Notes: generated from the letters alone by a model not told the origin. Numbered from the stretch's first letter, positions 9,690 to 40,217 are shown. The stretch: 64,000 nt of DNA from Vicinamibacterales bacterium (GCA_036732565.1 DAINCF010000001.1:1787-65786), one strand, 5' to 3'. Numbers and translations are program-made.

Positions 9690-9702
9690 GGTTGGGGCAC
9701 TG

Positions 9703-10050: not shown

Positions 10051-10081
10051 TAGTTTTCGCAAGGCACTCTTAGAATGTTCC

Positions 10082-11007: not shown

Positions 11008-11110
11008 GATGGCCTCCCGCGGAGATGCGGCGAACCGTGTTCGCCGCGTTCGTGAGTAAGTCGGAGCCGCTCGCCGGTTCTCGACATCGCGTTACCGAGA
11101 TTCGACGGGC

Positions 11111-23875: not shown

Positions 23876-23995
23876 CGCACAGAGATCTGCGACGCCACTG
23901 CTTGCGGTCCCTCTCGAGCGTCGGCGGACCCGGTGGCTCCGGTTCCTGTAGCAGGTCGCGGAGAGACACTTCTCGCACGTAGCCTCCTTCGTGAG

Positions 23996-24562
23996 TCAAG
24001 CCTGGCGCAACTGGTCGAATAACCACAGACGCGCAGTCAGCCAGTCTCGCTTGACCGTTCCGGTGGACAGTTCGAGTACGGTCGCTGTTTCCTCGATCGA
24101 CAGCCCTCCAAAAAAGCGCAATTCGACGATCCGGGCCTGTCGTGAATCCAGTGCCGCGAGGCGACCGAGCGCCGCGTCGAGTGCCACGAGATCCGTCTCC
24201 GGAGTCATCGGCGCGGCCACCTCCGCCTCCTCCAGAGGAATAGGACGGACACCCAGACCGCGCTTCCACGCCGCACGCCTGCGAGCGTGATCCAATAGGA
24301 CACGACGGGCCAAGCGCGCTGCGATGGCGAGGAAGTGCGCCCGATTCTGCCAATTGACTCGACGCTGATCAACCAGGCGCAAGTAGACCTCGTGCACGAG
24401 AGCCGTGGACTGCAGCGTGTGACCCGCGCGTTCTCCGCGCAACTGTCGGGCCGCCAATCGGCGGAGCTCCGGGTAGACGGCGCGAATCAGCTCGTCGAGC
24501 GCCGCCTGGTCGCCACCCTGCCATCGTTGGAGTAGGCGGGTGACATCCGGCTCCTCAACCAT
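23996..24562 (-). CDS. ECF-type RNA polymerase sigma factor (TIGR02999-like; the kinase-associated ECF group)
   Basis: DVTRLLQRWQGGDQAALDELIRAVYPELRRLA... and STALVHEVYLRL are hallmark strings. The ORF track starts at GTG 24589, but ATG 24562 has GCAGGAGG 5 nt upstream. Confidence 0.85.
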   Translation of the reverse strand: MVEEPDVTRLLQRWQGGDQAALDELIRAVYPELRRLAARQLRGERAGHTLQSTALVHEVYLRLVDQRRVNWQNRAHFLAIAARLARRVLLDHARRRAAWKRGLGVRPIPLEEAEVAAPMTPETDLVALDAALGRLAALDSRQARIVELRFFGGLSIEETATVLELSTGTVKRDWLTARLWLFDQLRQA

Positions 24563-24800
24563 CTGTGCCTCCTGCGTTACCGCCGGCACACGGGCGAACT
24601 GTGCCGCCGTCAGGCTTTGCTTGAGCGATTCAGAGAAGGTTGGATTATCGCCTGAACGAGAAAGGCTGCGTCTGAACCTTTAGGGCGGAATGTCCCTACT
24701 GGGGGAACGGCAGTCAGGCTCGACGCCGTTCCGACATCGCCGTTGAATACGTTTGGCAGTCTCGGAGCGGCCCCGAGGATCTACATATGAGCGCGCGCTT

Positions 24801-26894: not shown

Positions 26895-29288
26895 TCAGCC
26901 AGCGAACATGCTTGCGCGTGCTGCCGCCGCCGCTGCTTCGGAAGCCGCTGCGGCCGCGCGTTCGGCTGACTGGACCGCGTCGTTGGCTTCTTGCTCCGCT
27001 CGCCGCGCGGATTCCTCGGTTGTCTTGACGAGATCGTTTGCCTGATCGCGCAGTTCGGAAATCGCGCGGGTCAGCTCGTCGCACTCGTCGCGGAGGCGCA
27101 CGATCTCCTCCTGAAGCCGTCGTGCTTCCTGCTCGTGATCGCTGCACTGCCGTTCGTGGTCTGCGGTGTCCTGCTCATGTTGTTGGGTCTTGCCGACAAG
27201 CTCTTCGCCCTGGTTTGCCGCATCCTGGATCTGACCGAGCAGTTGCGTCGACTCTTGTTCATGCGCGCCGCATTCCTGAACGAGGCGTTGTGCCTCGCTC
27301 GCATGCTCGCCGATCGTAGCGAGCTCCTTGTTGGCGTCGGCCACTGCTTGTTGGATTTCGCCGACGAGCGATGACGCTTCATCGGCGCTCGCCTCGATCC
27401 GGGATACGGTCTCATCGGCTCGAGCTGCGTGATCCTCTATTTGAGTAACCAGATCGCTGGCCGATTTGGCATGCTCGCTGGCCACCTCCGCGTGGCCCTC
27501 AGCGGTTGTGGCGTGTTGACCGGCGTCCCCAGCCTGTTGTTCGGCAATGCCCGCCTGCTGTTCCGCCGCCGACGCCTGCTGCTCGGCAACACCAGCGTGC
27601 TGCTGTGCCGTCGTTGCCTGCTCTTCGGCCACGCCCGCCTGTTGCTCGGCCGTCGACGCCTGCTGCTCCGCAGTGCTGGCGAACTGCTCTGCCACCGTCG
27701 CATGCTGTTCGGCAGTGCCGGCTTGCTCCGCCGCCGCATCGGATTGTTCCTGCGCGATGGATGCCTGTTGTTCGGCGGCCTGGGCCTGTTCCTCCGCGCG
27801 TCCAGCCTGTTGTTCTGCGGAGGCGGCATGAGTATCGGCAGCCGCTTCGTGTCGCTCCGCAGCACCCGCGTGTTGTTCGGCTACCGACGCGTGCTGCTCG
27901 GCCGCCGTCGCTTGCTGTTCCGCGGCCGTCGCTTGCAGCTCGGCCCCGCTCGCATGCTGCTCCGCGACACCGGCTTGTTGTTCTGCGAGGGTAGCCTGTT
28001 GCTCTGCCGCCGTGGCTTGCTGCTCGGCAGCGGTGGCCTGCTGTTCGGCGAGGCCGGCCTGTTGCTCCGCGGTCGTTGCCTGTTGTTCTGCAGCACTCGC
28101 TTGCTGCTCTGCGACGCCGGCGTGTTGCTCGGCCGCGCCGGCCTGCTGCTCCGCCGTGCCAGCGTGTTGTTCCGCGGTTCCGGCATGCTGCTCAGCGGCG
28201 GCACTCTGTTGCTCGGCCAACCCCGATGCCTGTTCTGCGCTAGCAGAGTGTTGTTCGGCTACCCCAACTTGTTGCTCAGCCGCACCCGCATGTTGTTCAG
28301 CACTCGTAGCATGCTGCTCCGCATCGCCCGAATGCTGCTGCGCCAGGCCAGCCTGTTGTTCCGCTTGGTCCGCCTGGTCTGCTGCCGCTTGCGCGCGCTC
28401 GGCCGCTGCCTCTGCCTGTTCGCCGGCCGATTCGGCATGCTCTTGTGCCTCGCGCGCGGCGTCCGCCGCGCTCTGACTGCTGTTGTTGGCATCCGCGGCG
28501 GCCTCTGCCGCACTCTCGCCATTGAACTGATCGGCCACATTCCCCTCCAACTCGGTTGAGCCAACGGTTCCTGAGGACAGTCCCGATGCGCTGCCTGCCG
28601 GCTGTTCGAATACCTTGAGGTCCCGGAGTAGGTCTTTCTCCCGTTGGTGCAGACGTTCGAGCTGACTCTCCATCTGACGCCGAGCGTCCAGCGTCTGCTC
28701 GCCGATTCGATCGACTTGTTCGAGATCGCCCACCAACCGGCGGTTGCCCTCGACGACGTCGCTGAGGGCTTTTCCGAGGCCCGTCACGGTGTCGAGTGGT
28801 CCGAAGTCCGCCTCGCCACCGCTCAGGCGGTCAGCTGTCTTCGCCAACTCGCCAATGCCTTGAGCGATCGGCGCCACGCCCGCGGCGTTCCCATCGAGAA
28901 TCTTGCCGAAGCCCTCGAGAGTGTTCCCTACCCCTTTGCTCGCGCTACCAAAGGCACCGTCACCTGCGCCTCCGAGCTTCAGCACTCCGGCGGCCTTGCC
29001 GAGGTCATCCTTCGCGTAGAGGAGGTCGATCCCATCTTGAACGACGCCGTAGGCGGCTTTGAGAGGTGGCACGCGGTCTCCGACAGCGGCGAAGGTTCCA
29101 TCGGCAACGCCTTTGATGATCTGCGCCCCAGATGAGATCATCCCTAACCTGGCGTCGCCGATACCCTCAGCCGACGACTGCTCGAGATCACCCATGACAC
29201 GTCGAATATCAGTGATGGCATTTCTCACTCGCTCGAGGTGCGCTTCGACATCCTGGGGTGTTCGTGGACGACTGTCGCTCATGGTCAT
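26895..29288 (-). CDS. 797-aa acidic repeat protein: Gly-rich N-terminal domain, 43 AEQ[Q/H]Axx heptads, C-terminal coiled-coil; no signal peptide
   Basis: ORF track protein. I parsed the repeat register by hand (aa 309-609). It lies 6 nt downstream of the J-like gene stop. Confidence 0.85.
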   Translation of the reverse strand: MTMSDSRPRTPQDVEAHLERVRNAITDIRRVMGDLEQSSAEGIGDARLGMISSGAQIIKGVADGTFAAVGDRVPPLKAAYGVVQDGIDLLYAKDDLGKAAGVLKLGGAGDGAFGSASKGVGNTLEGFGKILDGNAAGVAPIAQGIGELAKTADRLSGGEADFGPLDTVTGLGKALSDVVEGNRRLVGDLEQVDRIGEQTLDARRQMESQLERLHQREKDLLRDLKVFEQPAGSASGLSSGTVGSTELEGNVADQFNGESAAEAAADANNSSQSAADAAREAQEHAESAGEQAEAAAERAQAAADQADQAEQQAGLAQQHSGDAEQHATSAEQHAGAAEQQVGVAEQHSASAEQASGLAEQQSAAAEQHAGTAEQHAGTAEQQAGAAEQHAGVAEQQASAAEQQATTAEQQAGLAEQQATAAEQQATAAEQQATLAEQQAGVAEQHASGAELQATAAEQQATAAEQHASVAEQHAGAAERHEAAADTHAASAEQQAGRAEEQAQAAEQQASIAQEQSDAAAEQAGTAEQHATVAEQFASTAEQQASTAEQQAGVAEEQATTAQQHAGVAEQQASAAEQQAGIAEQQAGDAGQHATTAEGHAEVASEHAKSASDLVTQIEDHAARADETVSRIEASADEASSLVGEIQQAVADANKELATIGEHASEAQRLVQECGAHEQESTQLLGQIQDAANQGEELVGKTQQHEQDTADHERQCSDHEQEARRLQEEIVRLRDECDELTRAISELRDQANDLVKTTEESARRAEQEANDAVQSAERAAAAASEAAAAAARASMFAG
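27462..28364 (-). repeat. Intragenic tandem repeat, 43 x 21 bp (903 bp), with no indel in register
   Basis: Encodes AEQQAGL AQQHSGD AEQHATS ... ASEHAKS. Ala is at position 1 in 43/43 units and His at position 4 in 17/43. It generates spurious repeat ORFs in the other frames and on the other strand. Confidence 0.9.
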
Positions 29289-29294: not shown

Positions 29295-30104
29295 TCAATC
29301 GAGCTCGAGGGGGAGCGTCTTGTCCAGACGATCGACATCGAGTGACCAGATGCCTGTCTTCAGGAATGGCTCCGCATCGGCGTACTGGATCAGGAGGGCA
29401 TACGACAGCAAGCGGCCGTCCCAGTCGCGCCCGCGGCCGAGCCCCGAGTCGATCTGGGCTACTTCGTCCGGCTTCAGCGCCCATTCTGGGTAGCCGTAGC
29501 TTCCGCTGTGGGCGACGTGTAGCCCCGTCTTCACACTGGAATAGACGACCGCCGCGGCAAGAATCCGTATGGATCCCCGCGATCGGTTGCGGACGCGCAT
29601 CCGCTCGTCAACGAACAGCGCATTGAGCTCCGAGATGGTCGATTCCGCCGCTGCCAGGCGCTGTTGTGCCTGTTGCACGGTAGCGGACAGATCGGCGCGT
29701 GCCTGCCGCTCACGCCACCACCCAAGACCCATGGCGGTGACGAGGGTCAGCAGCACTGCCGAGATGACGCCCGCAACGAGTGTCGATCGGGGAAGCACGT
29801 CGGGCGCGGCCACCGCCTCTTGTCCACGGGCGGTTGGAGCTGTGAATGGTGTCGCATTCATTGCAAGTGCTGGCTCATTTGCGGGAAGGTCGATGTTGCG
29901 ATCGGCCTCTCCTGGTGCGAGGAGCTCGCACGCGTCTCGCAAGTCCTGCAACGCCTTCTGGTAGGTGCGTCGCAGCGTCGGTGTCGGAGCGTTGGTCAGC
30001 CGGATGTGCGTGTCGGTGTGCAGCGCCTGAAACTGTCGGCGGACCTCCGCGCGGGCAGCATCGCGTTGGCATCCGAGGAGGGCCTCAGCCGCTTCGCGTG
30101 TCAT
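29295..30104 (-). CDS. Single-pass membrane protein with an N-terminal J-like domain (HPD replaced by H-I-R) and a ~130-aa extracytoplasmic C-terminal domain
   Basis: EALLGCQRDAARAEVRRQFQALHTDTHIRLTNA...YQKALQDLRDACELL aligns by eye to the J-domain helices II-III. TM segment STLVAGVISAVLLTLVTAMGLGWW. ATGA overlap with the Hsp70 stop. Confidence 0.7.
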   Translation of the reverse strand: MTREAAEALLGCQRDAARAEVRRQFQALHTDTHIRLTNAPTPTLRRTYQKALQDLRDACELLAPGEADRNIDLPANEPALAMNATPFTAPTARGQEAVAAPDVLPRSTLVAGVISAVLLTLVTAMGLGWWRERQARADLSATVQQAQQRLAAAESTISELNALFVDERMRVRNRSRGSIRILAAAVVYSSVKTGLHVAHSGSYGYPEWALKPDEVAQIDSGLGRGRDWDGRLLSYALLIQYADAEPFLKTGIWSLDVDRLDKTLPLELD

Positions 30105-31615
30105 AAATGGTTCACCGGCGTGGCGCGCACTAACGCGTGCTGGCGGGCAAGTGCCGCTGCTGCACTGGCATCGTCGCGCGAAAAGAGCTGCTCGAGCTCG
30201 AGTCCGGACTCGGCATCGTAGGCGCTCACCGCGACCGTAGAGTCGGCGCGCACTTCGATGGTGACGTCGACCGGATAATTGAGTCTCGGTCGTGCCAAGG
30301 GGCCCACCACCAAATCGCCCAAGTAAGTTTCTTGGCCATCGCCTGGCCGAAACTGCACGATCTCGAGCACGATCCGTTCTTGCTCGGCGCGAGTTGTGAA
30401 GAAGGTCCGAGTCGCGCGGCCTGGTAACGGTACGTTCTGGGGGACCACGGCATCGAACGTGACGCGGCCAGTGTGCGGGTCGACGACGCGCACGCCGGTG
30501 GCGTGGCCGCTAACGCCTCGCAGCGTGGGTGGCAGGTCGAGTGCCTCAGCGTCTCCCGACAATTGCAACGCGTGAATAGCCGCCCCGAACGCCACGGCCT
30601 TCCCGGGCTCGTGATAGCGCACACGCTCGGGGAAAAGGCGTTCCATCCGGTCCCGAATCGCTGGCACCATCGACGAACCGCCGACGAGCAATACGTCATC
30701 GATGTCATCGGGTTCGAGGCGGGCCGATCGAACGCATTCGAGCGCCAGCGCCTGACAGCGATCGAGGAGCGGGCCAATCTGTTCGTCGAATGCATACACC
30801 GCGATTCGCACGTCCAGCGGCAAGTCGCCCATCAGCAGGGTGCGCCGGACGACAGGCCGGGTAGTCGCGCAAAGCTCAATCTTGAGTGCCTCTGCTGCGC
30901 GCCGCAGATCCAGCAGCGTACGGGCAGTACTGGACAAACGCGTGCGGAGCCGCTCGTCGCACCCCGACAACAGTAATGCGGCAACCGCGTCGTCGAGTTC
31001 CTTACCCCCGAGATCGGCGACGCCAGCCTTGGACAGCACAGTAAGGCCGGAGCTTTGACAGGCAACCACGGATACGTCGCAGGTGCCCCCGCCCCAGTCG
31101 AACACCAACACGACGCGATCATCTGCTCCAACGGTGGCGCCGTAGTGAAGAGCAGCGGCCACCGGTTCCTCGACCAGATGCATCACCGGCAGATCGGCCA
31201 TCATGGCGGCGGCAATCACCGCTCTCCGCTGCGGGTCCGTGAAGTGTGCAGGAACTGTGATGACCCCACCATCGATCTGGGCATCACCCGATGTCTCTGC
31301 GTCGTAGCGGAGTTTCTTGAGGATGAGAGCCGCGAGCGCTTCCGCGCGCCAACCGGCTCCCCGGGCGTCGAAGCAGATCGGCTCGGCGGTGCCGAGGCTG
31401 CGCTTGAAGTATCGCAGCGCGACGAGATGCGGCTCTTCGTCAAGGAGCGCTTCCGCCGTGCGCCCGACATATGCGGCCTGACTCGCGAAACACACAACCG
31501 ATGGCGTGTGAAACAGGTCCTGCTGCACGCAGTCCGGCAGGAGCAACGGCGTGCCGTCGGCGTTGACGCGGGCCACGAGCGCATAGCTATTGCCCAGATC
31601 GATGCCGATTCTCAT
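30101..31615 (-). CDS. Atypical Hsp70-family ATPase (504 aa; NBD plus beta-sandwich SBD, no helical lid)
   Basis: IGIDLGNSYALVARV, VITVPAHFTDPQRRAVIAAA, EPVAAALHYG, VLVFDWGGGTCDVSVV, LLVGGSSMVPAIR and KAVAFGAAIHA match the Hsp70 NBD signatures. The protein ends about 120 aa after the NBD. Confidence 0.9.
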   Translation of the reverse strand: MRIGIDLGNSYALVARVNADGTPLLLPDCVQQDLFHTPSVVCFASQAAYVGRTAEALLDEEPHLVALRYFKRSLGTAEPICFDARGAGWRAEALAALILKKLRYDAETSGDAQIDGGVITVPAHFTDPQRRAVIAAAMMADLPVMHLVEEPVAAALHYGATVGADDRVVLVFDWGGGTCDVSVVACQSSGLTVLSKAGVADLGGKELDDAVAALLLSGCDERLRTRLSSTARTLLDLRRAAEALKIELCATTRPVVRRTLLMGDLPLDVRIAVYAFDEQIGPLLDRCQALALECVRSARLEPDDIDDVLLVGGSSMVPAIRDRMERLFPERVRYHEPGKAVAFGAAIHALQLSGDAEALDLPPTLRGVSGHATGVRVVDPHTGRVTFDAVVPQNVPLPGRATRTFFTTRAEQERIVLEIVQFRPGDGQETYLGDLVVGPLARPRLNYPVDVTIEVRADSTVAVSAYDAESGLELEQLFSRDDASAAAALARQHALVRATPVNHL

Positions 31616-33240
31616 GACCGTTGTGCCCCGATTTCCCAGCCGGCGATCACCTGTTTCAGCTCGCCGCGCAGCTCCAAGAGGGTCGTTCCGGCGATCTCGC
31701 GGGCGCGAGCCGTCGTGGCGTACCGACGCTCCAGGGCGTCGTAGGCTTGCACCTGGCGCTGCGCTCGCTGGCGGGCGGCATCCGCGTCCGCGGTCTGGCG
31801 GACGACACGCTCTCGAATTGCCTGCTCGAGGTCGGCGATCAACGTTGGTAGTTCATCTTGCAGATGCTGCGCGACGGTCGCCACCCACAAGCGTTGGAAC
31901 TCCTGTAGAATTCGACGTCCTTCTCCCCGTAGGTGCTCACGAGCTCGTTCACGCTCTCGAGCCTCACCCTCCGCCCGCTCCCGCCGGACCGTCCTCATCG
32001 CTTGCAACGCGCCAAGCGAGAGGAGCAGCACGCTGAGCGGCACCATCACGTCACGGAATGAACGGAGGAACGAGAAGCCGAACGCCGACAACAGCATCAC
32101 GACGACCATCTGATAGCGGCGGGCTATGGTGAGATATTCGAAGAACCCCGGCCGTGGCAATTCGCCTTGGTAATGTCTCGAGAAGATCACTGTGATGTCG
32201 AGGATCCGATGCAACCGCCCGTCAGACAGATGCCGAAGCGGCGTTGGGGTCCTCGCGCCTTTGCCAGTTGGCAGTCGATCGGCCGCCTGACGCTGAATCA
32301 CTCGGATCAGATCGTGAGTCGCGCGGAGATCCGCGAGGCCGTGTGCAAGAAGCGCTCGTCGTATGTCTCGCAGAAGGTTCTGCTCATCAGTCGGAGCGAG
32401 CCGAGTTGTCGTTGTGCGAGAGCGCGCTTCGCGGTCGAGGCGGACGACAGCATTGACTGCTTGCTCGACCTCGCTCCACAGCTCGGCCCCTGGCAACGAC
32501 GCCATGTGAAGGCGCTCCTCGAGTCCACGGACGAGCTCCACGGTCTGCCGCTGAAGGGACGTCCGCAGTTCGGCGACCGCCTCGACGCCAACGGCTTGAA
32601 GAGTTGGCGCGGAGCGGTGCTGCAGCAGGCCTCGGCGAGTGCGAAGCGACTGTAAGTCTCGGTGAACGTCGGCGGTGAAGGCAGCCAGCAGCGCTGATGC
32701 AGCGTCAGCGATGGCGACCGCTTGCAAAGCATTCCATGTGGCCGAGTCGACGTGCGACGCCCATGCAGCGACGAGGGTCTCCGCGGTGTGGTCGGCCTCG
32801 AGCCAACAGGTATTCCATGCGTGGTCGGTGAGAAGACGGCGGACCGTGGGAGTCTCGGCAGCGCAGCCGCTTACGAGGACGAACGGCCGTTGGTCAATCG
32901 CGCCTGCGACAGTAGGCGATGGTGGGTCGCTGGGCGCCACCCACGCCAGAATCGGCGCAACCGTCCGGCCTGCCACGGTGACACTCACCGCCGGCGATGC
33001 TAGCCGCAGGTGAATCAGTCGTCCGGCAGCCTCGATGGTGTCAGGTGTCGTCGCCTCAGACGTGAGTATTTCGACCTCGCTGACCGGCGACTCACAGGTC
33101 CGAATGAGGTGCTCGGCTGCGGCCCGCAGTGCCGTTTGGGAGCGCGGACCGCTCTCGGCGACCAGTCGGGAGAACTCTTCCAGCCACTGTCTCAGCGTTC
33201 GCTGTGCTGTCACGGCACCGCCACGGGCGACCGTTCTCAC
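31612..33240 (-). CDS. 542-aa membrane protein, no recognisable domain (TM hairpin plus C-terminal Arg/Glu-rich coiled-coil)
   Basis: GTGA and ATGA overlaps with both neighbours. Hydrophobic hairpin MVVVMLLSAFGFSFL...MVPLSVLLLSLGALQAM. C-terminus RRERAEGEARERERAREHLRGEGRR. Confidence 0.8.
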   Translation of the reverse strand: MRTVARGGAVTAQRTLRQWLEEFSRLVAESGPRSQTALRAAAEHLIRTCESPVSEVEILTSEATTPDTIEAAGRLIHLRLASPAVSVTVAGRTVAPILAWVAPSDPPSPTVAGAIDQRPFVLVSGCAAETPTVRRLLTDHAWNTCWLEADHTAETLVAAWASHVDSATWNALQAVAIADAASALLAAFTADVHRDLQSLRTRRGLLQHRSAPTLQAVGVEAVAELRTSLQRQTVELVRGLEERLHMASLPGAELWSEVEQAVNAVVRLDREARSRTTTTRLAPTDEQNLLRDIRRALLAHGLADLRATHDLIRVIQRQAADRLPTGKGARTPTPLRHLSDGRLHRILDITVIFSRHYQGELPRPGFFEYLTIARRYQMVVVMLLSAFGFSFLRSFRDVMVPLSVLLLSLGALQAMRTVRRERAEGEARERERAREHLRGEGRRILQEFQRLWVATVAQHLQDELPTLIADLEQAIRERVVRQTADADAARQRAQRQVQAYDALERRYATTARAREIAGTTLLELRGELKQVIAGWEIGAQRS

Positions 33241-34364
33241 CGCCGTCCCTCGTCATGACTGGTGACACGCACGCACCGAAAGCCGACGCTGTCGTCGCCC
33301 TGCTCGGGATTCAGGCGCGCGCGGGCGGACGCACGAAGACTAGACGCGATCGAGCGCCATGATCCGCCCCGTGCAACGCGATGGGCCGTGACCGTTGCAT
33401 CGGAGCTGACATACCAACCATCGACCCATTCCCACACGTTGCCTGCCATGTCGTAGAGACCCCAGTCGTTGGGCGCGAACGAGGCTACAGGCGCGGTGTG
33501 TTCCCAGCGATCGGCTGGCGGTGTGCCGAAGCTATTGGCGTGCGCTGTCAGGAATTGATCGCCCCAGGGGTACACAGCATCCACATTGCGGCCGCGCGCC
33601 GCGTACTCCCATTCCGCTTCGGTCGGCAGCCTGGCGCGAATCGAGGCACAGAACTCCTGCGCGTCGGCCCAGCGCGCGTTCACGACAGGCTGGTCGGGTC
33701 GCGTACTCCATGGCGGTTGTGGTGGCGTCGCCCGCCGGCGCGAAGCCGCGAACTCGCTGAACTGTTGCAGCGTCACTTCGGTGCGCATGATGTCGAAAGC
33801 GACGTCGATCGCGACCGCTCGACGAGGGCGCTCATCGGCGAGGCAGCTCGCATCGGTTGGAACACACCCCATCGCCACCGCGCCCGTCCCGACTCTGCGC
33901 CATGGCGTGGTAGCGAATGACTGTGCCCGCTCTTTGATGTCTTCGAGCGCAGCGGCTTCGAGATCGCGAGCCATGGTCTCTGCCGTGACTGTGGCGATGT
34001 CATCCTGCAGATCCAGTCGCACCAGCAGGGCCTGGCTCTCCTCGACGTCTACCGTCAGCTCGCGCCGGACCTTGGCGATTTGGCTCAGGACGATCACGAC
34101 ATGCGAACCGGCTGCGACAGGTATCTCGCGTGGTGTGTCCGCGACCGCCACGCCCGCGTCCTGCCCATCGATCCAGACTCGGCACGGCGCATCGCTGAGA
34201 ATGACGAGGCGACTGGCATGTTCGGCTGGCGGCGGCCCCCGACGCCGCTTCGTCACGTCCTGGACGTTCGGAGCTCGAGGCTTCGGCTTCGGCGGTGCCA
34301 CTTGCTCGGCCAGAAGAGTCGCGGCCATGAGCGTGGCCAGTAGGAACGTCGACAGCGATCGCAC
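33237..34364 (-). CDS. Secreted FGE/SUMF1 (formylglycine-generating-enzyme-fold) domain protein with a PEGA-like N-terminal domain
   Basis: Signal peptide MRSLSTFLLATLMAATLLA. LVILSDAPCRVWIDGQDAG is PEGA-like. RLPTEAEWEYAARG, NVWEWV and RVARGGSW are FGE-sulfatase motifs. Confidence 0.8.
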   Translation of the reverse strand: MRSLSTFLLATLMAATLLAEQVAPPKPKPRAPNVQDVTKRRRGPPPAEHASRLVILSDAPCRVWIDGQDAGVAVADTPREIPVAAGSHVVIVLSQIAKVRRELTVDVEESQALLVRLDLQDDIATVTAETMARDLEAAALEDIKERAQSFATTPWRRVGTGAVAMGCVPTDASCLADERPRRAVAIDVAFDIMRTEVTLQQFSEFAASRRRATPPQPPWSTRPDQPVVNARWADAQEFCASIRARLPTEAEWEYAARGRNVDAVYPWGDQFLTAHANSFGTPPADRWEHTAPVASFAPNDWGLYDMAGNVWEWVDGWYVSSDATVTAHRVARGGSWRSIASSLRASARARLNPEQGDDSVGFRCVRVTSHDEGRR

Positions 34365-34370: not shown

Positions 34371-35519
34371 TCACTTTTGAACCCAATCGCTCACGAGAAA
34401 CGACAGGCCCTGCAGATAGTCATCCGGTGCACAGTCGCGACACTCGAGCTCGACCGCCGCTCGCACGGTCCCATCCTCGACGCCTGTCAATCGGAGCGTG
34501 ATCAAACTGATCGTTCCGGTGGTTCGAAGTGTGCCGAATGCCAAGGCACTTGCGTTCGCCATGCGCCCGAGTTCCGCGGCACTCCGCGAGTCGGTAATGC
34601 CGAAGTTCTGAAACTGCGCCTCTTGAAGCAGCTCTTTGATGCGCTTGCGCTCGACGATCGACAGACCGGCGGCTGACAATTTGACGGCAAGCGCGCTCTC
34701 GAGCATCTCACGCAAGTCGCCCGCTTCCATCTCGAACCCAACTACCGCGACCGGTTGCTGGGCGAGCGCTTCGAGACGCAGTGGTTCGGTGACCTTGACC
34801 GTGAATTCGGCGATGGAGTACGGGTTGGCGCTGAGGTGCCGCTTCGTTCCCCCACTCTCTCCTGTGACCTCAGCGGCATAGAAGACACCGCCGACCGAGA
34901 AGCCACTCTCATACAGGTCGGTTCCCGATCCCCTGGCGAGCGGCGTGAGGTGCTCGAGCTTGCCGCTTCTGGTGTTGTACGCGCGGACTTCGTGACGCCG
35001 AAGCTGTAGTTCTTGGCCAAGCACCCAGGCGTAGTCGCCAGAGGGTGACAGTCCGATCGATTCCGGCTTGAGTATGCCGAGGTCGATTGATTTGATCTCG
35101 GCACCGGACTTCGGATTTCGGACCGACAGCGAGTATTGACGCTGGACTGCCTCAGGCCTCAGGCTTCCCGGGGTGAAGAGTGCGCTCGTCGCGACCGCCT
35201 CTTGAGCGATCGCGATCAGGATCTGCGACCGGCCGCGATTGATCGCGGCCAGCCGCGCTCGGGTCACCCCGCCTGCGATCGGCACTCGGTACAACTCGCG
35301 CCCCGTCTGAGCTCGTGCGATCCAGTGCTCGGTCACGAGATATCGCTCGTCGCCGCGAGCATCGTCGAACACACATGGGTCCCGGCGTACTTCGCATGCT
35401 TGCAGACGCTCACCCGACGGCTGTCGGCCAGCCCTGACAATCAGATCCCCCGCAGAAGCGGAGTGAGAGTGGAGACAGACCGCTACTGCCAACGCCTGAA
35501 CGCCGGTGCGAATGTCCAT
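34371..35519 (-). CDS. Secreted protein: unknown N-terminal ~230 aa plus a C-terminal CsgG/FlgO/TolB-N-like module
   Basis: Signal-like N-terminus. The C-terminus VAVVGFEMEAGD...SIVERKRIKELLQEAQFQNFG...LGRMANASALAFGTL follows the CsgG-like pattern. This is by-eye recognition. Confidence 0.65.
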   Translation of the reverse strand: MDIRTGVQALAVAVCLHSHSASAGDLIVRAGRQPSGERLQACEVRRDPCVFDDARGDERYLVTEHWIARAQTGRELYRVPIAGGVTRARLAAINRGRSQILIAIAQEAVATSALFTPGSLRPEAVQRQYSLSVRNPKSGAEIKSIDLGILKPESIGLSPSGDYAWVLGQELQLRRHEVRAYNTRSGKLEHLTPLARGSGTDLYESGFSVGGVFYAAEVTGESGGTKRHLSANPYSIAEFTVKVTEPLRLEALAQQPVAVVGFEMEAGDLREMLESALAVKLSAAGLSIVERKRIKELLQEAQFQNFGITDSRSAAELGRMANASALAFGTLRTTGTISLITLRLTGVEDGTVRAAVELECRDCAPDDYLQGLSFLVSDWVQK

Positions 35520-35537
35520 GGTCTGCCTCCCTTCCCT

Positions 35538-36101
35538 CTAGAACAGCACTCGCAGACCCACGCGCGTTCGCAGGGATCCGCTCGAGCCGAGGGTATCGAC
35601 CGGTCCGCCGTACGCTCCTTCGACGAAAAGAGAAGCGTTCTCTTTGATCGCGGTCTGAACGCCAAGTTTTCCGAGGACCTCGGGCTTGATGTCGACGCCT
35701 TCCGTCTGACTCAGCGGTGTACTGACCTCACCGCCGAAGTACGCGCTCGATGCCTTTTGCGGCGTGAAGTAGAAAGCGGCGCTACCGTTTGTGTAGAAGA
35801 GAGGTGTCGACCCCCGCTTGACCGTTCCGCTGCCGCTGAGGCCGAACGACAGCACGAAGCGGTTGGTGACGAACCGACCGAAGTCAACGGCCCCGAAGAT
35901 GTTGGTCGATGTCGACGTTCCGCCCTCGAAGCCGCCGACACCCTCGGTGCTTGAAATCTGTGTAAACGTTGCAAAACTGAGACTCAGTTGCTTCGCGCCC
36001 TTGCGCCCGACGGTACGTGCCCCCTCGGCCGACTGGCCGAATGCAGGGGCAGCCGCGACGCTGACGAAAAGAGCAATCAAGACCGGCAGATACTTCCGCA
36101 T
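35538..36101 (-). CDS. Small outer-membrane beta-barrel protein
   Basis: MRKYLPVLIALFVSVAAAPAFGQ signal (GGAGG SD; the ORF extends to 36122). Alternating beta-strand pattern and a C-terminal ...GLRVLF. Confidence 0.75.
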   Translation of the reverse strand: MRKYLPVLIALFVSVAAAPAFGQSAEGARTVGRKGAKQLSLSFATFTQISSTEGVGGFEGGTSTSTNIFGAVDFGRFVTNRFVLSFGLSGSGTVKRGSTPLFYTNGSAAFYFTPQKASSAYFGGEVSTPLSQTEGVDIKPEVLGKLGVQTAIKENASLFVEGAYGGPVDTLGSSGSLRTRVGLRVLF

Positions 36102-36142
36102 GTTGGACCTCCGTGTGCTCACGCGTTGATGGGTGCGAACGC

Positions 36143-36625
36143 CTAGAAACGCGAAACGCGGCGGCGTTCGATCTCCTTGACCAACTGCTCGCCCTTGATG
36201 CTGATGCGCACGCGATAGCGCGTGCTGTTGGGCTCGAAGCCGGCCGAGTCGATGTCATAGTTGCGAATCACGGCATTCACGCTGGTCTCGACGACGCTCC
36301 TCACGTCTTGGTTGTTCATCACCATCGTGTTGCCGCGAACTTCGGATTGAACCTTCTGTGCCAGGTCGGCTTGCGCGAGACTGAGCGCCGACTGACGTGC
36401 CAACCCTTCGTTCTTGTGATCGAAGATGCCTTCGCCGCCAATCACCGTGGTTTCGAACACGCGGCGCAGCTCGCTGAGAATGCGATCGTCTTTCCGGAGG
36501 CTTTCGTCGGCGACCGCGCCGCCGGGTGTGTAGACGGTGACTTTCTCCTGAGTGCTGGCGCACCCGGTAGCGCATGCGAGGGTCAGAACCGCCGCCACTT
36601 CTCTCCACCAACTCTTCGTCCTCAT
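36143..36625 (-). CDS. Lipoprotein, LPP20/FlgP-like (tentative family)
   Basis: Lipobox region AAVLTLACATGCAST. The pattern ARQSALSLAQADLAQKVQSEVRGNTMV...YRVRISIK resembles the LPP20 family. Confidence 0.6.
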   Translation of the reverse strand: MRTKSWWREVAAVLTLACATGCASTQEKVTVYTPGGAVADESLRKDDRILSELRRVFETTVIGGEGIFDHKNEGLARQSALSLAQADLAQKVQSEVRGNTMVMNNQDVRSVVETSVNAVIRNYDIDSAGFEPNSTRYRVRISIKGEQLVKEIERRRVSRF

Positions 36626-36653
36626 GACTGCCTCCTACGGTTGGATTGAGCTC

Positions 36654-37988
36654 TCACATCACGGTCATGCGGACGATGAACTTGTCCGCGCTCACTAGTT
36701 GCACTGGCCGTCCGGCCGCCTGAATACAGGTCGCCACGAGCTCGTCTTGCGGCAGCAGGACGTAGCCGGACAGCATCTCGAGTTCCGCCTGTGGGTGACT
36801 GGCGGTCGGCACGCTCGCAAATCGCACCGAATCGATGCCTTCGAGAGTTTCGAGACCAGCCTTCAGCCGTTGCGCGATCGAGAGGTCGACGTTCGCGAAC
36901 GTGACGCGCGTAACTCGCGGCCGGGAGGCGAGGATGCTCGGAATCTTCCAAGCCAGCGCGGCTGCGAACTCGGACGCGACGCCTTGCAGCGAAGATGTGA
37001 TGGCGCCGAGCGCGCTGGTATGCGCCTTCGTCACGCTGCGGCTGAAGGCCTCGATGATGTAACCGTTCGACACCACCATCGCTTTCGCTGAGGCGACGGT
37101 CGTTGCCGAGGCGAACTCCACGTCTTGCGGTTTGATTCGCTGCCAGGACAACTGCACGTTGCCTGTGAGGAGCATGTCAGCGCCGACCGCTCGCGCTACT
37201 GCGACCGCATCCAACGTGATGCCCTGACGTGCCCGTTCGAGCTGCGCCGCATTCACCGATCCGGCGGCCATCACGTCGTCGGAAGTCATCACCGGGTATC
37301 CGAATGCACCGAAGGCTTGGGCGATGGCGGCCTCGGCATTGCGCATCGTGCCCGAGGTCGTAGAGGCCGGAGTGTGTCCCCATGGCGTCGATCCGGACGC
37401 GCTCTGCGTCTCCGGCGGAGGTGCATTGAAGGCCGCCTCGGGAAGCAACACCAACAGTCGAGGGTTGCCCATGACGTCGAGATAGAGTTTGAGACCGTCG
37501 AGCTCACTGGCGGCCTCGCCGGTCGACTGCACGACCATCGCGTCGATGCGCACCTCGTACTTCGGCGGCGTCTCCTCGACGAGGCCTTCTCCCACAAGCT
37601 CGTACGACTTGACGAACCCTTTCGAGCGAGACGCGACGATGTCGCTGACTGCCCGAACGTTGCGCACGAGCGTCAGACGGCCGATCTCGACTCCGGCGCC
37701 GCGTGCCACGGCTTCGGCGTAGGCTGACTGGAGCGCTGCCTGACGAGCGGCGGACACATTGCCTCCAAACACCGTGGCCGATCCGATGACGAACACTCTT
37801 TCCGCTGGCCGAGGCTCGTTCGCGAGCGCTCGGACTTCGCCGACGCCCTGTCGCCCGGGCTGGGGCTCGACTCCCTGCACCGTCGGCGTACGAGGTGGCA
37901 CGGGTGTGACTTGTCCCGCAGCGGGAGAGGTGGTGCCGAGCAGTGTTGGCACCAGCAGCGTTCCAAAGAGCAGAGCGATCTTGATCAT
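36654..37988 (-). CDS. Secreted multi-domain protein, FlgT-like architecture (LPP20-like N-terminal domain plus a TolB-N/CsgG-like middle domain); tentative
   Basis: Signal peptide MIKIALLFGTLLVPTLLG. The N-terminal domain is AARQAALQSAYAEAVARGAGVEI...YEVRIDAMV. The middle domain is PRLLVLLPE...ARAVGADMLLTGNV. Confidence 0.6.
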   Translation of the reverse strand: MIKIALLFGTLLVPTLLGTTSPAAGQVTPVPPRTPTVQGVEPQPGRQGVGEVRALANEPRPAERVFVIGSATVFGGNVSAARQAALQSAYAEAVARGAGVEIGRLTLVRNVRAVSDIVASRSKGFVKSYELVGEGLVEETPPKYEVRIDAMVVQSTGEAASELDGLKLYLDVMGNPRLLVLLPEAAFNAPPPETQSASGSTPWGHTPASTTSGTMRNAEAAIAQAFGAFGYPVMTSDDVMAAGSVNAAQLERARQGITLDAVAVARAVGADMLLTGNVQLSWQRIKPQDVEFASATTVASAKAMVVSNGYIIEAFSRSVTKAHTSALGAITSSLQGVASEFAAALAWKIPSILASRPRVTRVTFANVDLSIAQRLKAGLETLEGIDSVRFASVPTASHPQAELEMLSGYVLLPQDELVATCIQAAGRPVQLVSADKFIVRMTVM

Positions 37989-39394: not shown

Positions 39395-39518
39395 CGTGCG
39401 ACCTCCTACCCTCAGACGCGCGAGACGCCCGTGAAGTAGATCGTGTGGTGTCGCGACGCCTGACACCCTGAGGTCGTGTCCCGACCGTGAATGAAGCGAA
39501 GGGGCCCTCGTGGCGTGC

Positions 39519-39550
39519 GGAACTGCTTGGGTTTATCGGCGATCGCGTAC
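39519..39550 (+). promoter_or_regulatory. Candidate ECF-type promoter (GGAAC ... CGCGTA) upstream of the ECF sigma gene at 39594
   Basis: GGAAC at 39519-39523, followed 16-20 nt later by GCGAT/CGCGTA. Position is 45-75 nt before the start. Motif-only call. Confidence 0.25.
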
Positions 39551-39593
39551 GACGGTCTTCCCTGTATTATTCGAGCCAACAGTCCTCCACCGC

Positions 39594-40163: not shown

Positions 40164-40217
40164 GCCGTCTATTGTGTGTCCTGGTTGAGCTGTTATCATC
40201 TGCGCGGAACAGAGCTG

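What the first reader, a model, noticed from the sequence alone, without database searches (positions are those of the whole stretch)
29295..31615. Lid-less Hsp70 translationally coupled to a membrane-anchored J-like protein whose HPD is H-I-R
SEEN: the 504-aa protein keeps all Hsp70 nucleotide-binding signatures (IGIDLG, VITVPAHF, EPVAAALHYG, DWGGGTCDVS, LLVGGSSMVP, AFGAAIHA). It stops after a beta-sandwich-sized segment, so the alpha-helical lid present in ~640-aa DnaK is missing.

Its stop overlaps (ATGA) the start of a 269-aa protein. That protein's first 60 aa align by eye to the J-domain helices, but where HPD is expected it reads THIRL. A single TM segment and a ~130-aa outside domain follow.

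ESTABLISHED: the HPD tripeptide is required for J-domain stimulation of Hsp70 ATPase. HscC/DjlC is a precedent for specialised Hsp70 plus membrane J pairs.

INFERENCE: this is either a non-canonical co-chaperone/anchor or a J-like recruitment module that tethers the Hsp70 to the inner membrane.
Basis: partly seen in the sequence, partly recalled or inferred. Interest (0 to 1): 0.65.

Follow-up and report, generated by a model that had tools for sequence, protein, structure and literature searches.

The report
Lidless Hsp70 with HPD-less J-like partner
A soil bacterium encodes a shortened Hsp70 chaperone coupled to a membrane protein whose J-type docking domain lacks the supposedly essential HPD motif, and the chaperone has changed the matching contact residues, which points to a private, rewired chaperone pair that has not been described.

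Summary
A 504-aa Hsp70 (30101-31615, minus strand) has the nucleotide-binding domain and the beta-sandwich but no helical lid. Its stop overlaps (ATGA) the start of a 269-aa protein (29295-30104).

Residues 1-67 of that protein are a true remote homologue of the J-domain (hhalign 94.9%, P 4e-8; its helical Foldseek matches with probability 0.98-1.00 are J-domains). It has no HPD. The family signature is Q-I-R-L-T-N-A-P-T, and the window reads H-I-R-L-T-N-A-P-T. A conserved DLPxxxP motif, one TM helix and an ApaG-like beta-sandwich follow.

The Hsp70 forms its own clade apart from DnaK, HscA and HscC. It keeps the catalytic residues, but family-wide it has replaced the residues that read the HPD: R167, N170, T173, Q378 and linker D393.

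The pair sits in a tightly packed nine-gene cluster. An uncharacterised hairpin-anchored protein precedes the Hsp70 in every locus where it could be checked. In other genomes the J-like module is fused to FHA domains or to periplasmic FGE-sulfatase, Lcl_C or PPIase domains.

Best reading: a membrane-tethered Hsp70/J-like machine insulated from DnaK/DnaJ, a new variant of a known kind. Binding, ATPase effect and physiological role are untested.

The parts
30101..31615 (-). Lidless Hsp70, 504 aa. NBD is about aa 1-357 (30545-31615). An altered linker A-L-D-L-P-P-T-L-R-G is aa 358-367 (30515-30544). SBD-beta is aa 368-478 (30182-30514). A short conserved C-terminal helix is aa 479-504.
   Evidence: Pfam HSP70 E 9.6e-66, profile positions 2-492 of 599. 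Scores are below every NCBIfam DnaK/HscA cut-off. Alignment to E. coli DnaK and residue mapping. Forms its own clade in an NJ tree.
29295..30104 (-). 269-aa J-like membrane protein. Its start overlaps the Hsp70 stop (ATGA).
   Evidence: AF2 model has mean pLDDT 79.
29904..30104 (-). J-like module, aa 1-67: helices 3-10, 18-37 and 42-62. H33-I-R35 aligns with HPD. N38-A-P-T41 is the hairpin tip.
   Evidence: hhalign against 50 J-domains: 94.9%, P 4.4e-8, score 41.3, against shuffles of 9.6+-2.3. Pfam DnaJ is the most frequent weak hit. J-domain HMM hits. Foldseek matches 4j80_A, 9fqr_HA and 2ctq with probability 0.98-1.00. Motif statistics.
29871..29891 (-). Conserved short linear motif D72-L-P-A-N-E-P78 in the disordered linker between the J-like module and the TM helix.
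   Evidence: [DE]LPx(2-4)P occurs 5-16 aa after the module in 93 of 129 family proteins, against 1 of 466 background windows. AF2 pLDDT is below 50 at residues 73-84.
29721..29789 (-). Single transmembrane helix (about aa 106-128). It continues as a helical stalk to aa 165.
   Evidence: Hydrophobic stretch STLVAGVISAVLLTLVTAMGLGWW. AF2 predicts one continuous helix 106-165 with pLDDT above 90.
29349..29600 (-). C-terminal beta-sandwich (aa 169-252), ApaG-like, predicted to lie on the periplasmic side.
   Evidence: Foldseek matches ApaG (2f1e, 1xvs, 1xq4) with probability 0.98-0.99 and TM 0.44. It recurs in 69 of 181 module proteins. The equivalent domain in L001 carries four cysteines.
31612..33240 (-). 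542-aa protein of unknown family, the constant upstream partner of this Hsp70 lineage. It is mostly helical, with a hydrophobic helical hairpin (about aa 375-410) followed by a coiled coil. Its stop overlaps the Hsp70 start (ATGA).
   Evidence: Junction. Homologues of 542-956 aa lie directly upstream of the Hsp70 in every locus where this could be checked. No Pfam or PDB sequence match.
33237..34364 (-). 375-aa secreted protein: signal peptide, a PEGA-like segment (judged by eye) and an FGE-sulfatase (C-type-lectin fold) domain. Its stop overlaps the next start (GTGA).
   Evidence: Pfam FGE-sulfatase E 7e-49. Junction. In other genomes the same domain is fused directly to J-like plus TM (7 of 51 proteins).
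26895..29288 (-). 797-aa helical protein with about 45 copies of the heptad A-E-Q-[QH]-A-x-x, 6 nt downstream of the J-like gene. Candidate client or scaffold.
   Evidence: 57% identical to the 820-aa gene in the same position in L084. Weak SMC-like coiled-coil hits only.
34371..37988 (-). Four tightly packed upstream genes for envelope proteins (382, 194, 160 and 444 aa). From the N-terminal sequences, read by eye, the 382-, 194- and 444-aa products appear to carry signal peptides, and the 160-aa product appears to carry a lipobox-type lipoprotein signal. They are conserved with the Hsp70 genes in close relatives.
   Evidence: Intergenic gaps of 6-28 nt. Weak FlgO/CsgG and FlgT_N hits. Same gene order in L084 and in a JGI contig.

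Best explanation
The two genes encode a dedicated Hsp70/J-type pair that is tethered to the membrane and insulated from the housekeeping DnaK/DnaJ system.

The Hsp70 is an active ATPase with a peptide-binding beta-sandwich but no lid. The 269-aa protein is a single-pass inner-membrane protein. Its cytoplasmic N-terminus is a diverged J-domain that has exchanged HPD for Q/H-I-R-L-T-N-A-P-T.

I propose the following steps:
1. The J-like domain docks at the usual J-site, meaning NBD lobe IIa, the linker and SBD-beta.
2. The contact is rewired. The basic R35 and the NAPT tip face the family-invariant E170 and H/R378, in place of the D35-R167/Q378 contact of DnaJ-DnaK.
3. The adjacent DLPxxxP motif may occupy the open, lidless peptide groove. 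This would resemble the way IscU's LPPVK motif is bound by HscA (stated from my own knowledge of that system).
4. Together these contacts hold the Hsp70 at the membrane next to the hairpin-anchored 542-aa partner.
5. They couple the Hsp70's ATP cycle to what the periplasmic beta-sandwich and the co-encoded FGE-sulfatase protein sense.
6. The most likely clients are the co-encoded long helical proteins (here the 797-aa heptad-repeat protein).

Shown here: homology, loss of HPD, reciprocal changes in the Hsp70, gene coupling, recurrent co-location and domain fusions.
Inferred: physical binding, the site of binding, ATPase stimulation (I put this at about 0.35 on its own), topology, clients and physiological role.
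For: - J-domain homology of aa 1-67: hhalign 94.9%, P 4.4e-8, score 41.3, against 9.6+-2.3 for 100 column shuffles and 12.3 for the reversed alignment.
- An HMM built from 50 DnaJ J-domains hits 174 family proteins, best E 1.5e-8.
- Pfam DnaJ is the top recurring weak hit, and one member reaches E 1e-4.
- The AF2 module has pLDDT above 92, and the Foldseek hits with probability 0.98-1.00 that fall on helical folds are J-domains.
- HPD is absent in all 175 modules. Q33, R35, N38, A39, P40 and T41 are each present in 82-97% of them.
- In the Hsp70, the catalytic residues D8, K70, P143, D148, R151, E171, D194, T199 and D201 are kept.
- R167, N170, T173, Q378 and D393 are conserved in DnaK, HscA and HscC but are replaced in all 26 family members sampled: G/D/H/E, E, V, H/R and G respectively. 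E206 and E217 are also lost, matching the change of DnaJ K26/R27 to Q/E in the module. The roles of these residues are taken from PMC8215388.
- ATGA coupling in the window and in L084.
- The J-like gene lies directly downstream of the Hsp70 in L090 as well.
- J-like genes are present in 10 of 13 Hsp70-seeded loci. A4 or the Hsp70 is present in about half of the J-like-seeded loci that have at least 4 kb of flank.
- No other Hsp70 or J-domain hit exists in the 64-kb window.
- 101 of 181 module proteins have the arrangement N-terminal J-like plus one TM helix.
- Periplasmic FGE-sulfatase, Lcl_C, PPIase, SurA_N and TonB_C domains are fused after the TM helix in other members.
Against: - No interaction, structure of the complex or ATPase measurement exists. 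No multimer prediction could be run.
- The window protein itself does not reach Pfam DnaJ even at E 0.1. Foldseek E-values for the whole model are weak (0.03-0.3).
- Replacing H or D of the HPD has abolished ATPase stimulation in every system tested (PMC8215388). A non-stimulating role is therefore a serious alternative.
- Linkage is not obligatory. L086, L006 and L004 have the Hsp70 without a detectable J-like gene. L161, L168, L122 and L128 have a J-like gene with no Hsp70 within about 10 kb.
- The interdomain linker is strongly altered (VLLLD becomes P-x-L-R/K-G). Allosteric coupling may therefore not work as it does in DnaK.
- The R35-E170 pairing is my reading of two one-dimensional alignments.
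Confidence: 0.55

Rival explanations
1. The J-like domain binds the Hsp70 but does not trigger hydrolysis. It acts as a passive anchor or a brake, as the HPD-less Pam16/Tim16 does at the mitochondrial import motor (my own knowledge). ATP turnover would be set by clients, by the 542-aa partner or by another factor.
For: HPD is absent in all 175 modules. Replacing H or D of the HPD has abolished stimulation in every system tested (PMC8215388). The Hsp70 linker residue D393 is replaced by G in all 26 family members sampled. The 542-aa partner is more constant than the J-like gene.
Against: Pam16 works with an HPD-bearing partner, Pam18. No HPD J-domain is encoded in the window or in the loci examined. 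The Hsp70 has lost the residues that an HPD J-domain would need, so no canonical J-protein is likely to act on it. The near-invariance of R35 and N-A-P-T at the hairpin tip points to an active contact surface and not a decayed one.
Confidence: 0.25
2. The lidless Hsp70 is not a chaperone for its own clients. It would be an Hsp110-like helper (nucleotide-exchange factor) of the housekeeping DnaK, as recently proposed in general for truncated bacterial DnaK paralogues.
For: A 2026 review proposes this role for NBD-containing DnaK derivatives in complex bacteria (PMC13580251). The linker no longer resembles VLLLD, as is the case in Hsp110.
Against: The beta-sandwich pocket residues stay hydrophobic and the catalytic residues are intact. 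The gene is always coupled to a membrane hairpin protein and is often next to J-like membrane proteins. It is never next to dnaK, dnaJ or grpE in the family loci examined.
Confidence: 0.07
3. The resemblance to a J-domain has no functional meaning. The 269-aa protein would be a generic single-pass signalling or anti-sigma-like protein that merely lies next to an Hsp70 gene.
For: JGI names one homologue 'negative regulator of sigma E activity'. Pairs of ECF sigma factor and Ser/Thr kinase genes flank the cluster. Some J-like genes have no Hsp70 nearby.
Against: Profile, HMM and fold evidence for J-domain homology. Start/stop overlap with the Hsp70 gene is conserved in relatives. Co-location with a rare Hsp70 lineage is far more frequent than chance. 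The changes on the Hsp70 J-site are reciprocal. No anti-sigma domain was found by Pfam.
Confidence: 0.05

Closest known systems
E. coli HscC with the membrane-anchored J-proteins DjlB/DjlC
   Same: A specialised, non-housekeeping Hsp70 paralogue encoded next to membrane-anchored J-type partners. It is about as diverged from DnaK as this Hsp70 is: 27% identity to this Hsp70 and 34% to DnaK.
   Different: HscC is 556 aa and keeps a shortened lid, and it keeps R167, N170, T173, Q378 and D393. DjlC has a canonical HPD J-domain. The two Hsp70s are separate clades. HscC has no counterpart of the 542-aa partner.
Pam16 (Tim16), the HPD-less J-like subunit of the mitochondrial import motor, with Pam18, Tim44 and mtHsp70
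   Same: A J-like domain without HPD acts at a membrane together with a scaffold that holds an Hsp70 there. This comparison rests on my own knowledge. The J-like proteins are mentioned in PMC12953747, which I did not read.
   Different: Pam16 pairs with an HPD J-protein and with a canonical, lid-bearing Hsp70 whose J-site is unchanged. Here no HPD partner is seen and the Hsp70 J-site itself is rewired. There is no sequence relationship beyond the J fold.
Lidless eukaryotic Hsp70s: Ssz1/HSPA14 with the J-protein zuotin (RAC), and HSPA12
   Same: An Hsp70 lacking the alpha-helical lid forms a dedicated pair with a J-type protein (PMC13580251).
   Different: Zuotin has an HPD that acts on a different Hsp70 (Ssb). 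Ssz1 is regarded as a poor ATPase (my own knowledge), whereas the catalytic residues are intact here. The cellular context also differs: ribosome there, membrane here.
HscA-HscB-IscU
   Same: A specialised Hsp70 that recognises one short proline-containing motif (LPPVK) in a dedicated client delivered by a dedicated J-protein (my own knowledge). This is a possible analogy for the DLPxxxP motif next to the J-like module.
   Different: HscB has HPD. HscA keeps the lid and the J-site residues. The DLPxxxP-groove interaction proposed here is untested.
Chaperone- or NTPase-centred 'conflict systems' of Kaur et al. 2020 (MoxR-vWA ternary systems; DO-GTPase/GAP1 systems, some with HSP70, GrpE and DnaJ fusions)
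   Same: A constant NTPase core with variable neighbours. The neighbours include FGE-sulfatase (FGS) domains, caspases, TIR and FHA domains, and many components are membrane-associated.
   Different: No DO-GTPase, GAP1, tubulin, MoxR or vWA protein was detected by Pfam in the window operon or among the called genes of the loci examined. The HSP70 systems in that paper use GrpE and canonical DnaJ fusions in actinobacteria and firmicutes. The J-like module and the 542-aa partner were not found in the passages of that paper that I retrieved by searching for 'Hsp70' and 'DO-GTPase'.

Membership tests
J-domain (DnaJ domain, Pfam PF00226) | Helix II / helix III antiparallel hairpin preceded by a short helix I | tested here: met
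   AF2 predicts H3-10, H18-37 and H42-62 with pLDDT above 92. Foldseek matches J-domains 4j80_A, 9fqr_HA and 2ctq with probability 0.98-1.00. Helices II and III are about 5 residues longer than in DnaJ, and helix IV is absent.
J-domain (DnaJ domain, Pfam PF00226) | Sequence similarity to the J-domain profile | tested here: inconclusive
   Met at the profile level: hhalign 94.9%, P 4.4e-8, and a J-domain HMM hits 174 family members. Not met at the curated level: the window protein has no Pfam hit at E 0.1 and scores E 0.12-0.71 against my J-domain HMM.
J-domain (DnaJ domain, Pfam PF00226) | His-Pro-Asp tripeptide in the helix II-III loop | tested here: not met
   H-I-R aligns with HPD in the window, and Q-[IV]-R in the family. 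The loop is N-A-P-T. No HPD occurs in any of the 175 modules.
J-domain (DnaJ domain, Pfam PF00226) | Stimulates the ATPase of a partner Hsp70 | not testable with these tools
   Needs biochemistry.
Hsp70 (Pfam PF00012) | Actin-fold nucleotide-binding domain with the catalytic residues | tested here: met
   Pfam E 9.6e-66. D8, K70, P143, D148, R151, E171, D194, T199 and D201 are conserved.
Hsp70 (Pfam PF00012) | Beta-sandwich substrate-binding domain | tested here: met
   Aligned through DnaK residues about 393-504. Pocket positions 401, 404, 426, 436 and 438 stay hydrophobic.
Hsp70 (Pfam PF00012) | Alpha-helical lid (SBD-alpha) and conserved hydrophobic linker (D)VLLLD | tested here: not met
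   Only about 25 residues follow the beta-sandwich. Profile positions 493-599 are unmatched. The linker reads L-P-P-x-L-[RK]-G, with D393 replaced by G in all 26 members.
DnaK / HscA / HscC orthologous groups | Score above the curated equivalog cut-off and placement inside the clade | tested here: not met
   DnaK 205 bits against a cut-off of 822; HscA 203 against 708. It forms a separate clade in the NJ tree, with 26.6%, 29.4% and 27.1% identity to E. coli DnaK, HscA and HscC.
DnaK / HscA / HscC orthologous groups | HPD-reading residues R167, N170, T173 and Q378 | tested here: not met
   All four are conserved in E. coli DnaK, HscA and HscC and in 15 other DnaKs. All are replaced in 26 of 26 family members.
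DO-GTPase/GAP1 or MoxR-vWA conflict systems (Kaur et al. 2020) | Core GTPase plus GAP1, or MoxR plus vWA, gene pair | tested here: not met
   No such Pfam domains occur in the operon or in the 542-aa partner family. No PADLOC hit.
Pam16/Pam18-type J-like/J heterodimer | An HPD-bearing J partner encoded with, or acting with, the J-like protein | tested here: inconclusive
   There is no HPD J-domain in the 64-kb window or within the module proteins. The rest of the genome is not available.

The most novel reading that the evidence does not exclude
The A4-Hsp70 core plus its J-like adaptors may be a transmembrane sensing or defence machine centred on an Hsp70. In this reading, periplasmic C-type-lectin-fold receptors (FGE-sulfatase or Lcl_C, either fused to J-like plus TM or encoded alongside) and FHA-J-like adaptors (which would read Ser/Thr-kinase signals) gate a rewired, lidless Hsp70. 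The Hsp70 then assembles or releases co-encoded helical polymers or effectors: a kinase-caspase in L086, a TIR protein in a JGI contig, a phospholipase-like protein in L090. This would be an Hsp70 counterpart of the MoxR-vWA and GTPase 'thresholding' conflict systems. It would use a J-type interface that works without HPD.
Probability: 0.2. Interest if true: 0.85.

Novelty: new variant of a known kind. Interest (0 to 1): 0.68.

Why it matters
The HPD tripeptide is treated as the universal, indispensable feature of J-domain action on Hsp70.

Here a whole natural family of J-domain homologues has replaced it with another invariant motif. The family has at least 409 clusters at 50% identity. These genes are repeatedly found next to an Hsp70 lineage that has changed exactly the residues that read the HPD.

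If the pair is functional, it would be a natural example of a re-coded, insulated Hsp70/J interface. That would be useful for understanding how J-domains trigger hydrolysis, how paralogous chaperone systems avoid cross-talk, and how to design orthogonal chaperone pairs.

It would also give a concrete, testable partner set for one of the many unexplained truncated DnaK paralogues of soil bacteria. And it would link an Hsp70 to transmembrane adaptor proteins that carry sensor-type periplasmic domains.

Tried and rejected
- **PADLOC:** no hit for any of the five core proteins.
- **Myxococcus StkA/StkB/StkC locus:** considered and rejected. StkA is 540 aa and is followed by an SCP2 protein and a small protein, which is a different arrangement.
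- **DO-GTPase/HSP70 systems of Kaur et al.:** rejected because no GTPase, GAP1, tubulin or GrpE is present.
- **Genome-contig scan with the Hsp70 alignment:** the patterns were too generic. Only 3 of the 80 returned loci belong to the family; the others are ordinary dnaK loci. I reused those loci as a source of 50 real J-domains and canonical DnaKs.
- **542-aa partner:** a profile search against PDB sequences and a lenient Pfam search found nothing credible. The single-sequence AF2 model was unusable (pLDDT 44), so its fold is unknown. A degenerate dynamin-like GTPase was considered but is unsupported.
- **Diversity-generating retroelement in L093:** suggested by a bAvd gene next to the Hsp70. 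The repeats there are simply two paralogous Lcl_C genes, and no template/variable repeat pair was seen.
- **Metagenome scan with the J-like profile:** biased towards the soluble FHA-J-like subfamily (70 of 79 loci). It gives only a rough linkage estimate.
- **Exact look-up of the window proteins:** returned no names or organism.
- **Circular-shift control for hhalign:** uninformative, because local alignments survive the shift.
Full report
**1. What is in the sequence**

On the minus strand there are ORFs at 30101..31615 (504 aa) and 29295..30104 (269 aa), exactly as reported. The Hsp70 stop and the next start share ATGA.

Pfam HSP70 matches with E 9.6e-66, but only over profile positions 2-492 of 599. 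In an alignment with E. coli DnaK, the beta-sandwich is complete up to about DnaK residue 504. Only about 25 residues follow, so the alpha-helical lid is missing apart from a short conserved helix. The DnaK sequence was read from NC_000913. My recalled copy, used, differed at one irrelevant position.

The pair is not isolated. The Hsp70 start overlaps (ATGA) the stop of a 542-aa ORF. That ORF in turn overlaps (GTGA) a 375-aa FGE-sulfatase protein. A 797-aa ORF starts 6 nt after the 269-aa gene. Four further genes lie upstream with gaps of 6-28 nt.

The same nine genes occur in the same order in two other metagenome contigs, with 58-73% protein identity for the Hsp70 and the 269-aa protein.

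**2. Is the N-terminus J-like?**

Pfam finds nothing in the 269-aa protein at E 0.1. However, the first 67 residues are a recurrent module. I found it in other proteins of related loci, fused behind FHA domains, and as short ORFs.

- Ten module sequences were scanned against Pfam at E up to 10. DnaJ was the family hit by most of them (3 of 10, best E 0.024).
- I took 50 real J-domains from dnaJ genes in ordinary dnaK loci that an earlier scan had fetched. I compared their alignment with 35 modules by hhalign. The result was probability 94.9%, P 4.4e-8 and score 41.3. One hundred column shuffles gave 9.6+-2.3 (maximum 19.2), and the reversed alignment gave 12.3.
- An HMM of those J-domains hits 174 module proteins at domain E below 1, best 1.5e-8.
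- One family member reaches Pfam DnaJ at E 1e-4 on its own.
- JGI's pipeline had named two of the short ORFs 'Sec63'. I take this to reflect a J-domain-containing COG, which is my inference.
- An AF2 model built from a 24-sequence alignment gives the module pLDDT above 92, with helices 3-10, 18-37 and 42-62.
- In a Foldseek search of the PDB, the hits on helical folds with probability 0.98-1.00 were J-domains: T. thermophilus DnaJ 4j80_A, 9fqr_HA and DNAJC12 2ctq. E-values for the whole multi-domain model are weak, 0.08-0.29.

The module is a J-domain homologue.

**3. The HPD position**

Across 175 modules the column compositions are as follows:

| Position | Composition (of 175) |
|---|---|
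| 33 | Q 144, H 8 |
| 34 | I, V, L or M |
| 35 | R 164 |
| 38 | N 158 |
| 39 | A 170 |
| 40 | P 170 |
| 41 | T 161 |

No module has HPD. In the model, residues 33-37 end helix II and N-A-P-T is the hairpin tip. The family signature is therefore Q-I-R-L-T-N-A-P-T. The window's H is a minority variant.

Helix II keeps basic residues at positions 22-24 and keeps Y25. The DnaJ positions K26 and R27 are Q and E in the module.

**4. The Hsp70 has changed on the matching surface**

According to the review PMC8215388:
- D35 of DnaJ bonds to R167 and Q378 of DnaK.
- H33 bonds to the backbone of linker residue L391.
- P34 contacts P419.
- DnaJ R22, K26 and R27 face DnaK E206, D211 and E217.
- K48 faces D477.

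Mapping 26 members of the lidless family onto DnaK gives the following replacements:

| DnaK residue | In the lidless family |
|---|---|
| R167 | G 19, D 5, H 1 (window), E 1 |
| N170 | E 25 of 26 |
| T173 | V 25 of 26 |
| Q378 | H or R |
| E206 | S or A |
| E217 | Y, S or T |
| D393 | G 26 of 26 |
| Linker VLLL | P-x-L-[RK] |

R167, N170, T173, Q378 and D393 are all retained in E. coli DnaK, HscA and HscC and in 15 other DnaKs.

The catalytic and allosteric residues D8, K70, P143, D148, R151, E171, D194, T199 and D201 are kept. P419, L391 and an acidic residue at 477 are also kept. MAFFT misplaces K70 by three columns; the HMMER alignment pairs the FKR and IKR motifs. Pocket positions of the beta-sandwich remain hydrophobic.

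So the Hsp70 looks like a working ATPase with a peptide groove. The loss of HPD in the module is mirrored by loss of the HPD-reading residues in the Hsp70. The change includes a possible charge reversal: D35 facing R167 would become R35 facing E170. The pairing itself is my inference.

**5. Which Hsp70 is it?**

NCBIfam scores are far below every equivalog cut-off: DnaK 205 against 822, and HscA 203 against 708.

I built an NJ tree over 490 shared columns. It included E. coli DnaK, HscA and HscC (read from NC_000913), 15 other DnaKs and 26 family members. The family is a separate clade. The window protein is 26.6%, 29.4% and 27.1% identical to DnaK, HscA and HscC.

The word-indexed search found 593 clusters at E 1e-10. 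The best 120 are nearly all 504-510 aa. The ones that carry names are from Vicinamibacteria and Thermoanaerobaculia (Acidobacteriota). Two further related loci are labelled Holophagales and 'Chitinophaga' MAGs.

The second refutation test ('belongs to a well-studied clade with a known partner elsewhere') is also not met. No other Hsp70 or J-domain is encoded in the 64-kb window.

**6. The rest of the 269-aa protein**

After the module comes a disordered linker (pLDDT below 50 at residues 73-84) that carries D72-L-P-A-N-E-P78. A [DE]LPx(2-4)P motif lies 5-16 residues after the module in 93 of 129 family proteins that have a tail. It occurs in only 1 of 466 control windows from the same proteins.

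Then comes one long helix, 106-165. Its first 23 residues are hydrophobic and form the TM segment.

A beta-sandwich follows (169-252). Its best Foldseek matches are ApaG proteins, with probability 0.98-0.99 and TM 0.44. The equivalent domain in the L001 relatives carries four cysteines, and the 177-aa L001 protein has a strongly basic N-terminal flank. This fits an N-in/C-out topology. Topology was not tested.

**7. Genomic context across relatives**

A homologue of the 542-aa protein (542-956 aa) lies directly upstream of the Hsp70 in every family locus where the upstream region is available. In most of those loci the two genes overlap at start and stop.

This partner has an N-terminal region, a long helical part, a conserved PGFxEYxxxxRRYQM motif leading into two hydrophobic helices separated by about 6 residues, and then a coiled coil. 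It has no Pfam or PDB sequence relative. Its single-sequence AF2 model was unusable.

J-like genes were found in 10 of 13 Hsp70-seeded loci:
- window, L084, the JGI 29-kb contig, L001/L002, L085, L005, L092 and L093;
- the JGI 26.7-kb contig, judged by gene size only;
- L090 and L091, which were seeded from J-like proteins and both contain the core.

No J-like gene was detected in L086, L006 or the short L004.

A profile search of 1.84 billion representatives found 409 module-bearing clusters at E 1e-3 or better, and 234 at 1e-10 or better. Architectures among 181 of them were:

| Architecture | Count |
|---|---|
| N-terminal module plus one TM helix | 101 (61 with the beta-sandwich) |
| Module only, or truncated | 39 |
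| An N-terminal domain followed by the module | 31 |
| Tandem modules (8 of them with TM helices) | 9 |
| N-terminal module plus five TM helices | 1 |

Pfam on 51 atypical members found FHA in 13. After the TM helix it found FGE-sulfatase (7), Lcl_C (4), PPIase or FKBP (3), SurA_N, Big_2, TonB_C, Sel1 and others. The FGE-sulfatase protein encoded separately in the window operon is thus, in other genomes, part of the same polypeptide as the J-like module.

A metagenome scan seeded with the module returned 79 loci. Seventy of them are the soluble subtype with the module at the C-terminal end, the architecture of the FHA-J-like proteins of L001 and L085. This is a bias of the search patterns. Among those with at least 4 kb upstream, 5 of 10 had the 542-aa family and 4 of 10 the Hsp70. 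Of five J-TM loci, three had the core and two (L161, L168) did not within 10 kb.

Linkage is therefore frequent, and for such a rare Hsp70 lineage far above chance, but it is not obligatory.

Other neighbours vary:
- a PDZ protein and apolipoprotein-like helical proteins (L001, L085, L003);
- a kinase-caspase fusion and a Sel1-caspase protein (L086);
- a phospholipase-like protein (L090);
- a TIR protein (JGI contig);
- bAvd and Lcl_C paralogues (L093).

**8. Interpretation**

The best-supported reading is a dedicated Hsp70/J-type pair held at the inner membrane and insulated from DnaK/DnaJ. The module cannot act on DnaK because it lacks HPD. Canonical J-domains should not act on this Hsp70 because it lacks R167, N170, T173, Q378 and D393.

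- I infer docking at the usual J-site through a re-coded contact.
- I suggest that the DLPxxxP motif occupies the lidless groove, by analogy with LPPVK recognition by HscA (my own knowledge).
- The 542-aa hairpin protein would be the constant scaffold.
- The periplasmic beta-sandwich and the FGE-sulfatase domain would be the sensing side.
- The co-encoded helical proteins would be clients. One example is the 797-aa protein with about 45 A-E-Q-[QH]-A-x-x heptads, which is 57% identical in L084.

The main rival is a Pam16-like, non-stimulating anchor or brake. It cannot be separated from my reading without biochemistry. The Hsp110-like 'helper of DnaK' idea from a 2026 review fits the altered linker. 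It does not fit the intact groove or the constant membrane partners.

**9. Comparison with the literature**

Searches of the held library found:
- the general statement that complex bacteria carry truncated DnaK paralogues of unknown role (PMC13580251);
- the HscC/DjlB/DjlC system;
- the Myxococcus StkA locus, which has a different architecture;
- GTPase-centred conflict systems that sometimes include HSP70, GrpE and DnaJ fusions.

None describes a lidless Hsp70 lineage with an HPD-less J-like family, the Q-I-R-L-T-N-A-P-T signature, the 542-aa partner or the DLPxxxP motif. Absence from this library is not proof of absence from the literature.

**10. Verdict**

This is a new variant of a known kind (Hsp70 with a J-type co-chaperone). 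Function is untested.

Noticed in passing
window 26895-29288 (-): A 797-aa protein whose middle third is about 45 tandem copies of a 7-aa unit A-E-Q-[QH]-A-x-x (21-nt period). A glycine-rich N-terminal region and an SMC-like coiled coil flank the repeats. It is conserved at 57% identity, with a different repeat number, in L084.
   Followed up: partly
window 34371-37988 (-): Four tightly packed genes lie upstream of the FGE-sulfatase gene, for proteins of 382, 194, 160 and 444 aa. The 382-, 194- and 444-aa products appear to have signal peptides, and the 160-aa product appears to have a lipoprotein signal, all judged by eye. They give only weak FlgO/CsgG and FlgT_N hits. The order is conserved in L084 and in a JGI contig, which suggests an outer-membrane or periplasmic sub-complex belonging to the same operon.
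   Followed up: partly
window 21245-24589 (-) and 39510-42713 (+): The nine-gene cluster is flanked on both sides by a pair made of an ECF sigma factor and a Ser/Thr kinase with TPR repeats. Close relatives also have a kinase-TPR gene and a sigma gene next to the cluster. The FHA fusions of the J-like module elsewhere hint at control by Ser/Thr phosphorylation.
   Followed up: partly
L093 11673-17312: The lidless Hsp70 is followed by a bAvd-like gene (the accessory protein of diversity-generating retroelements) and by three Lcl_C genes that have PEGA-like N-termini (judged by eye). The long repeats there are just two paralogous Lcl_C genes. No reverse transcriptase or template/variable repeat pair was seen within 10 kb.
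   Followed up: partly
L086 11562-15504; L090 12337-13656; JGI 26.7-kb contig (no DNA held): Effector-like neighbours lie next to the A4-Hsp70 core in distant relatives: a protein kinase fused to a caspase, a Sel1-caspase protein, a phospholipase-like protein and a 1168-aa TIR protein. This pattern is typical of defence or conflict islands.
   Followed up: no
L128 8612-12107; L122 about 8000-11500; L001 206-4888; L085 2358-7280: The soluble FHA-J-like gene (about 200 aa) travels with a DUF481 outer-membrane barrel gene and two or three genes for helical or apolipoprotein-like proteins of about 300 aa. This sub-cluster sits divergently next to A4-Hsp70 in L001, L085 and L091. In L122 and L128 it occurs without an Hsp70 within about 10 kb.
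   Followed up: partly
proteins P0204, P0212, P0220, P0226, P0230, P0246, P0247: Some family members carry two J-like modules in tandem before the TM helix. The second copy is more degenerate (for example N-A-A-T in place of N-A-P-T).
   Followed up: no
L001 5125-7995; L085 7590-10004: In some relatives the 542-aa-family partner has a C-terminal extension of 200-400 aa. The extension is Pro/Ala-rich and low in complexity, with repeated amphipathic K-P-N/S-A-x-x-x-F/A-x-A-K-M/I-A-A-M-K segments. It is absent from the window protein.
   Followed up: no
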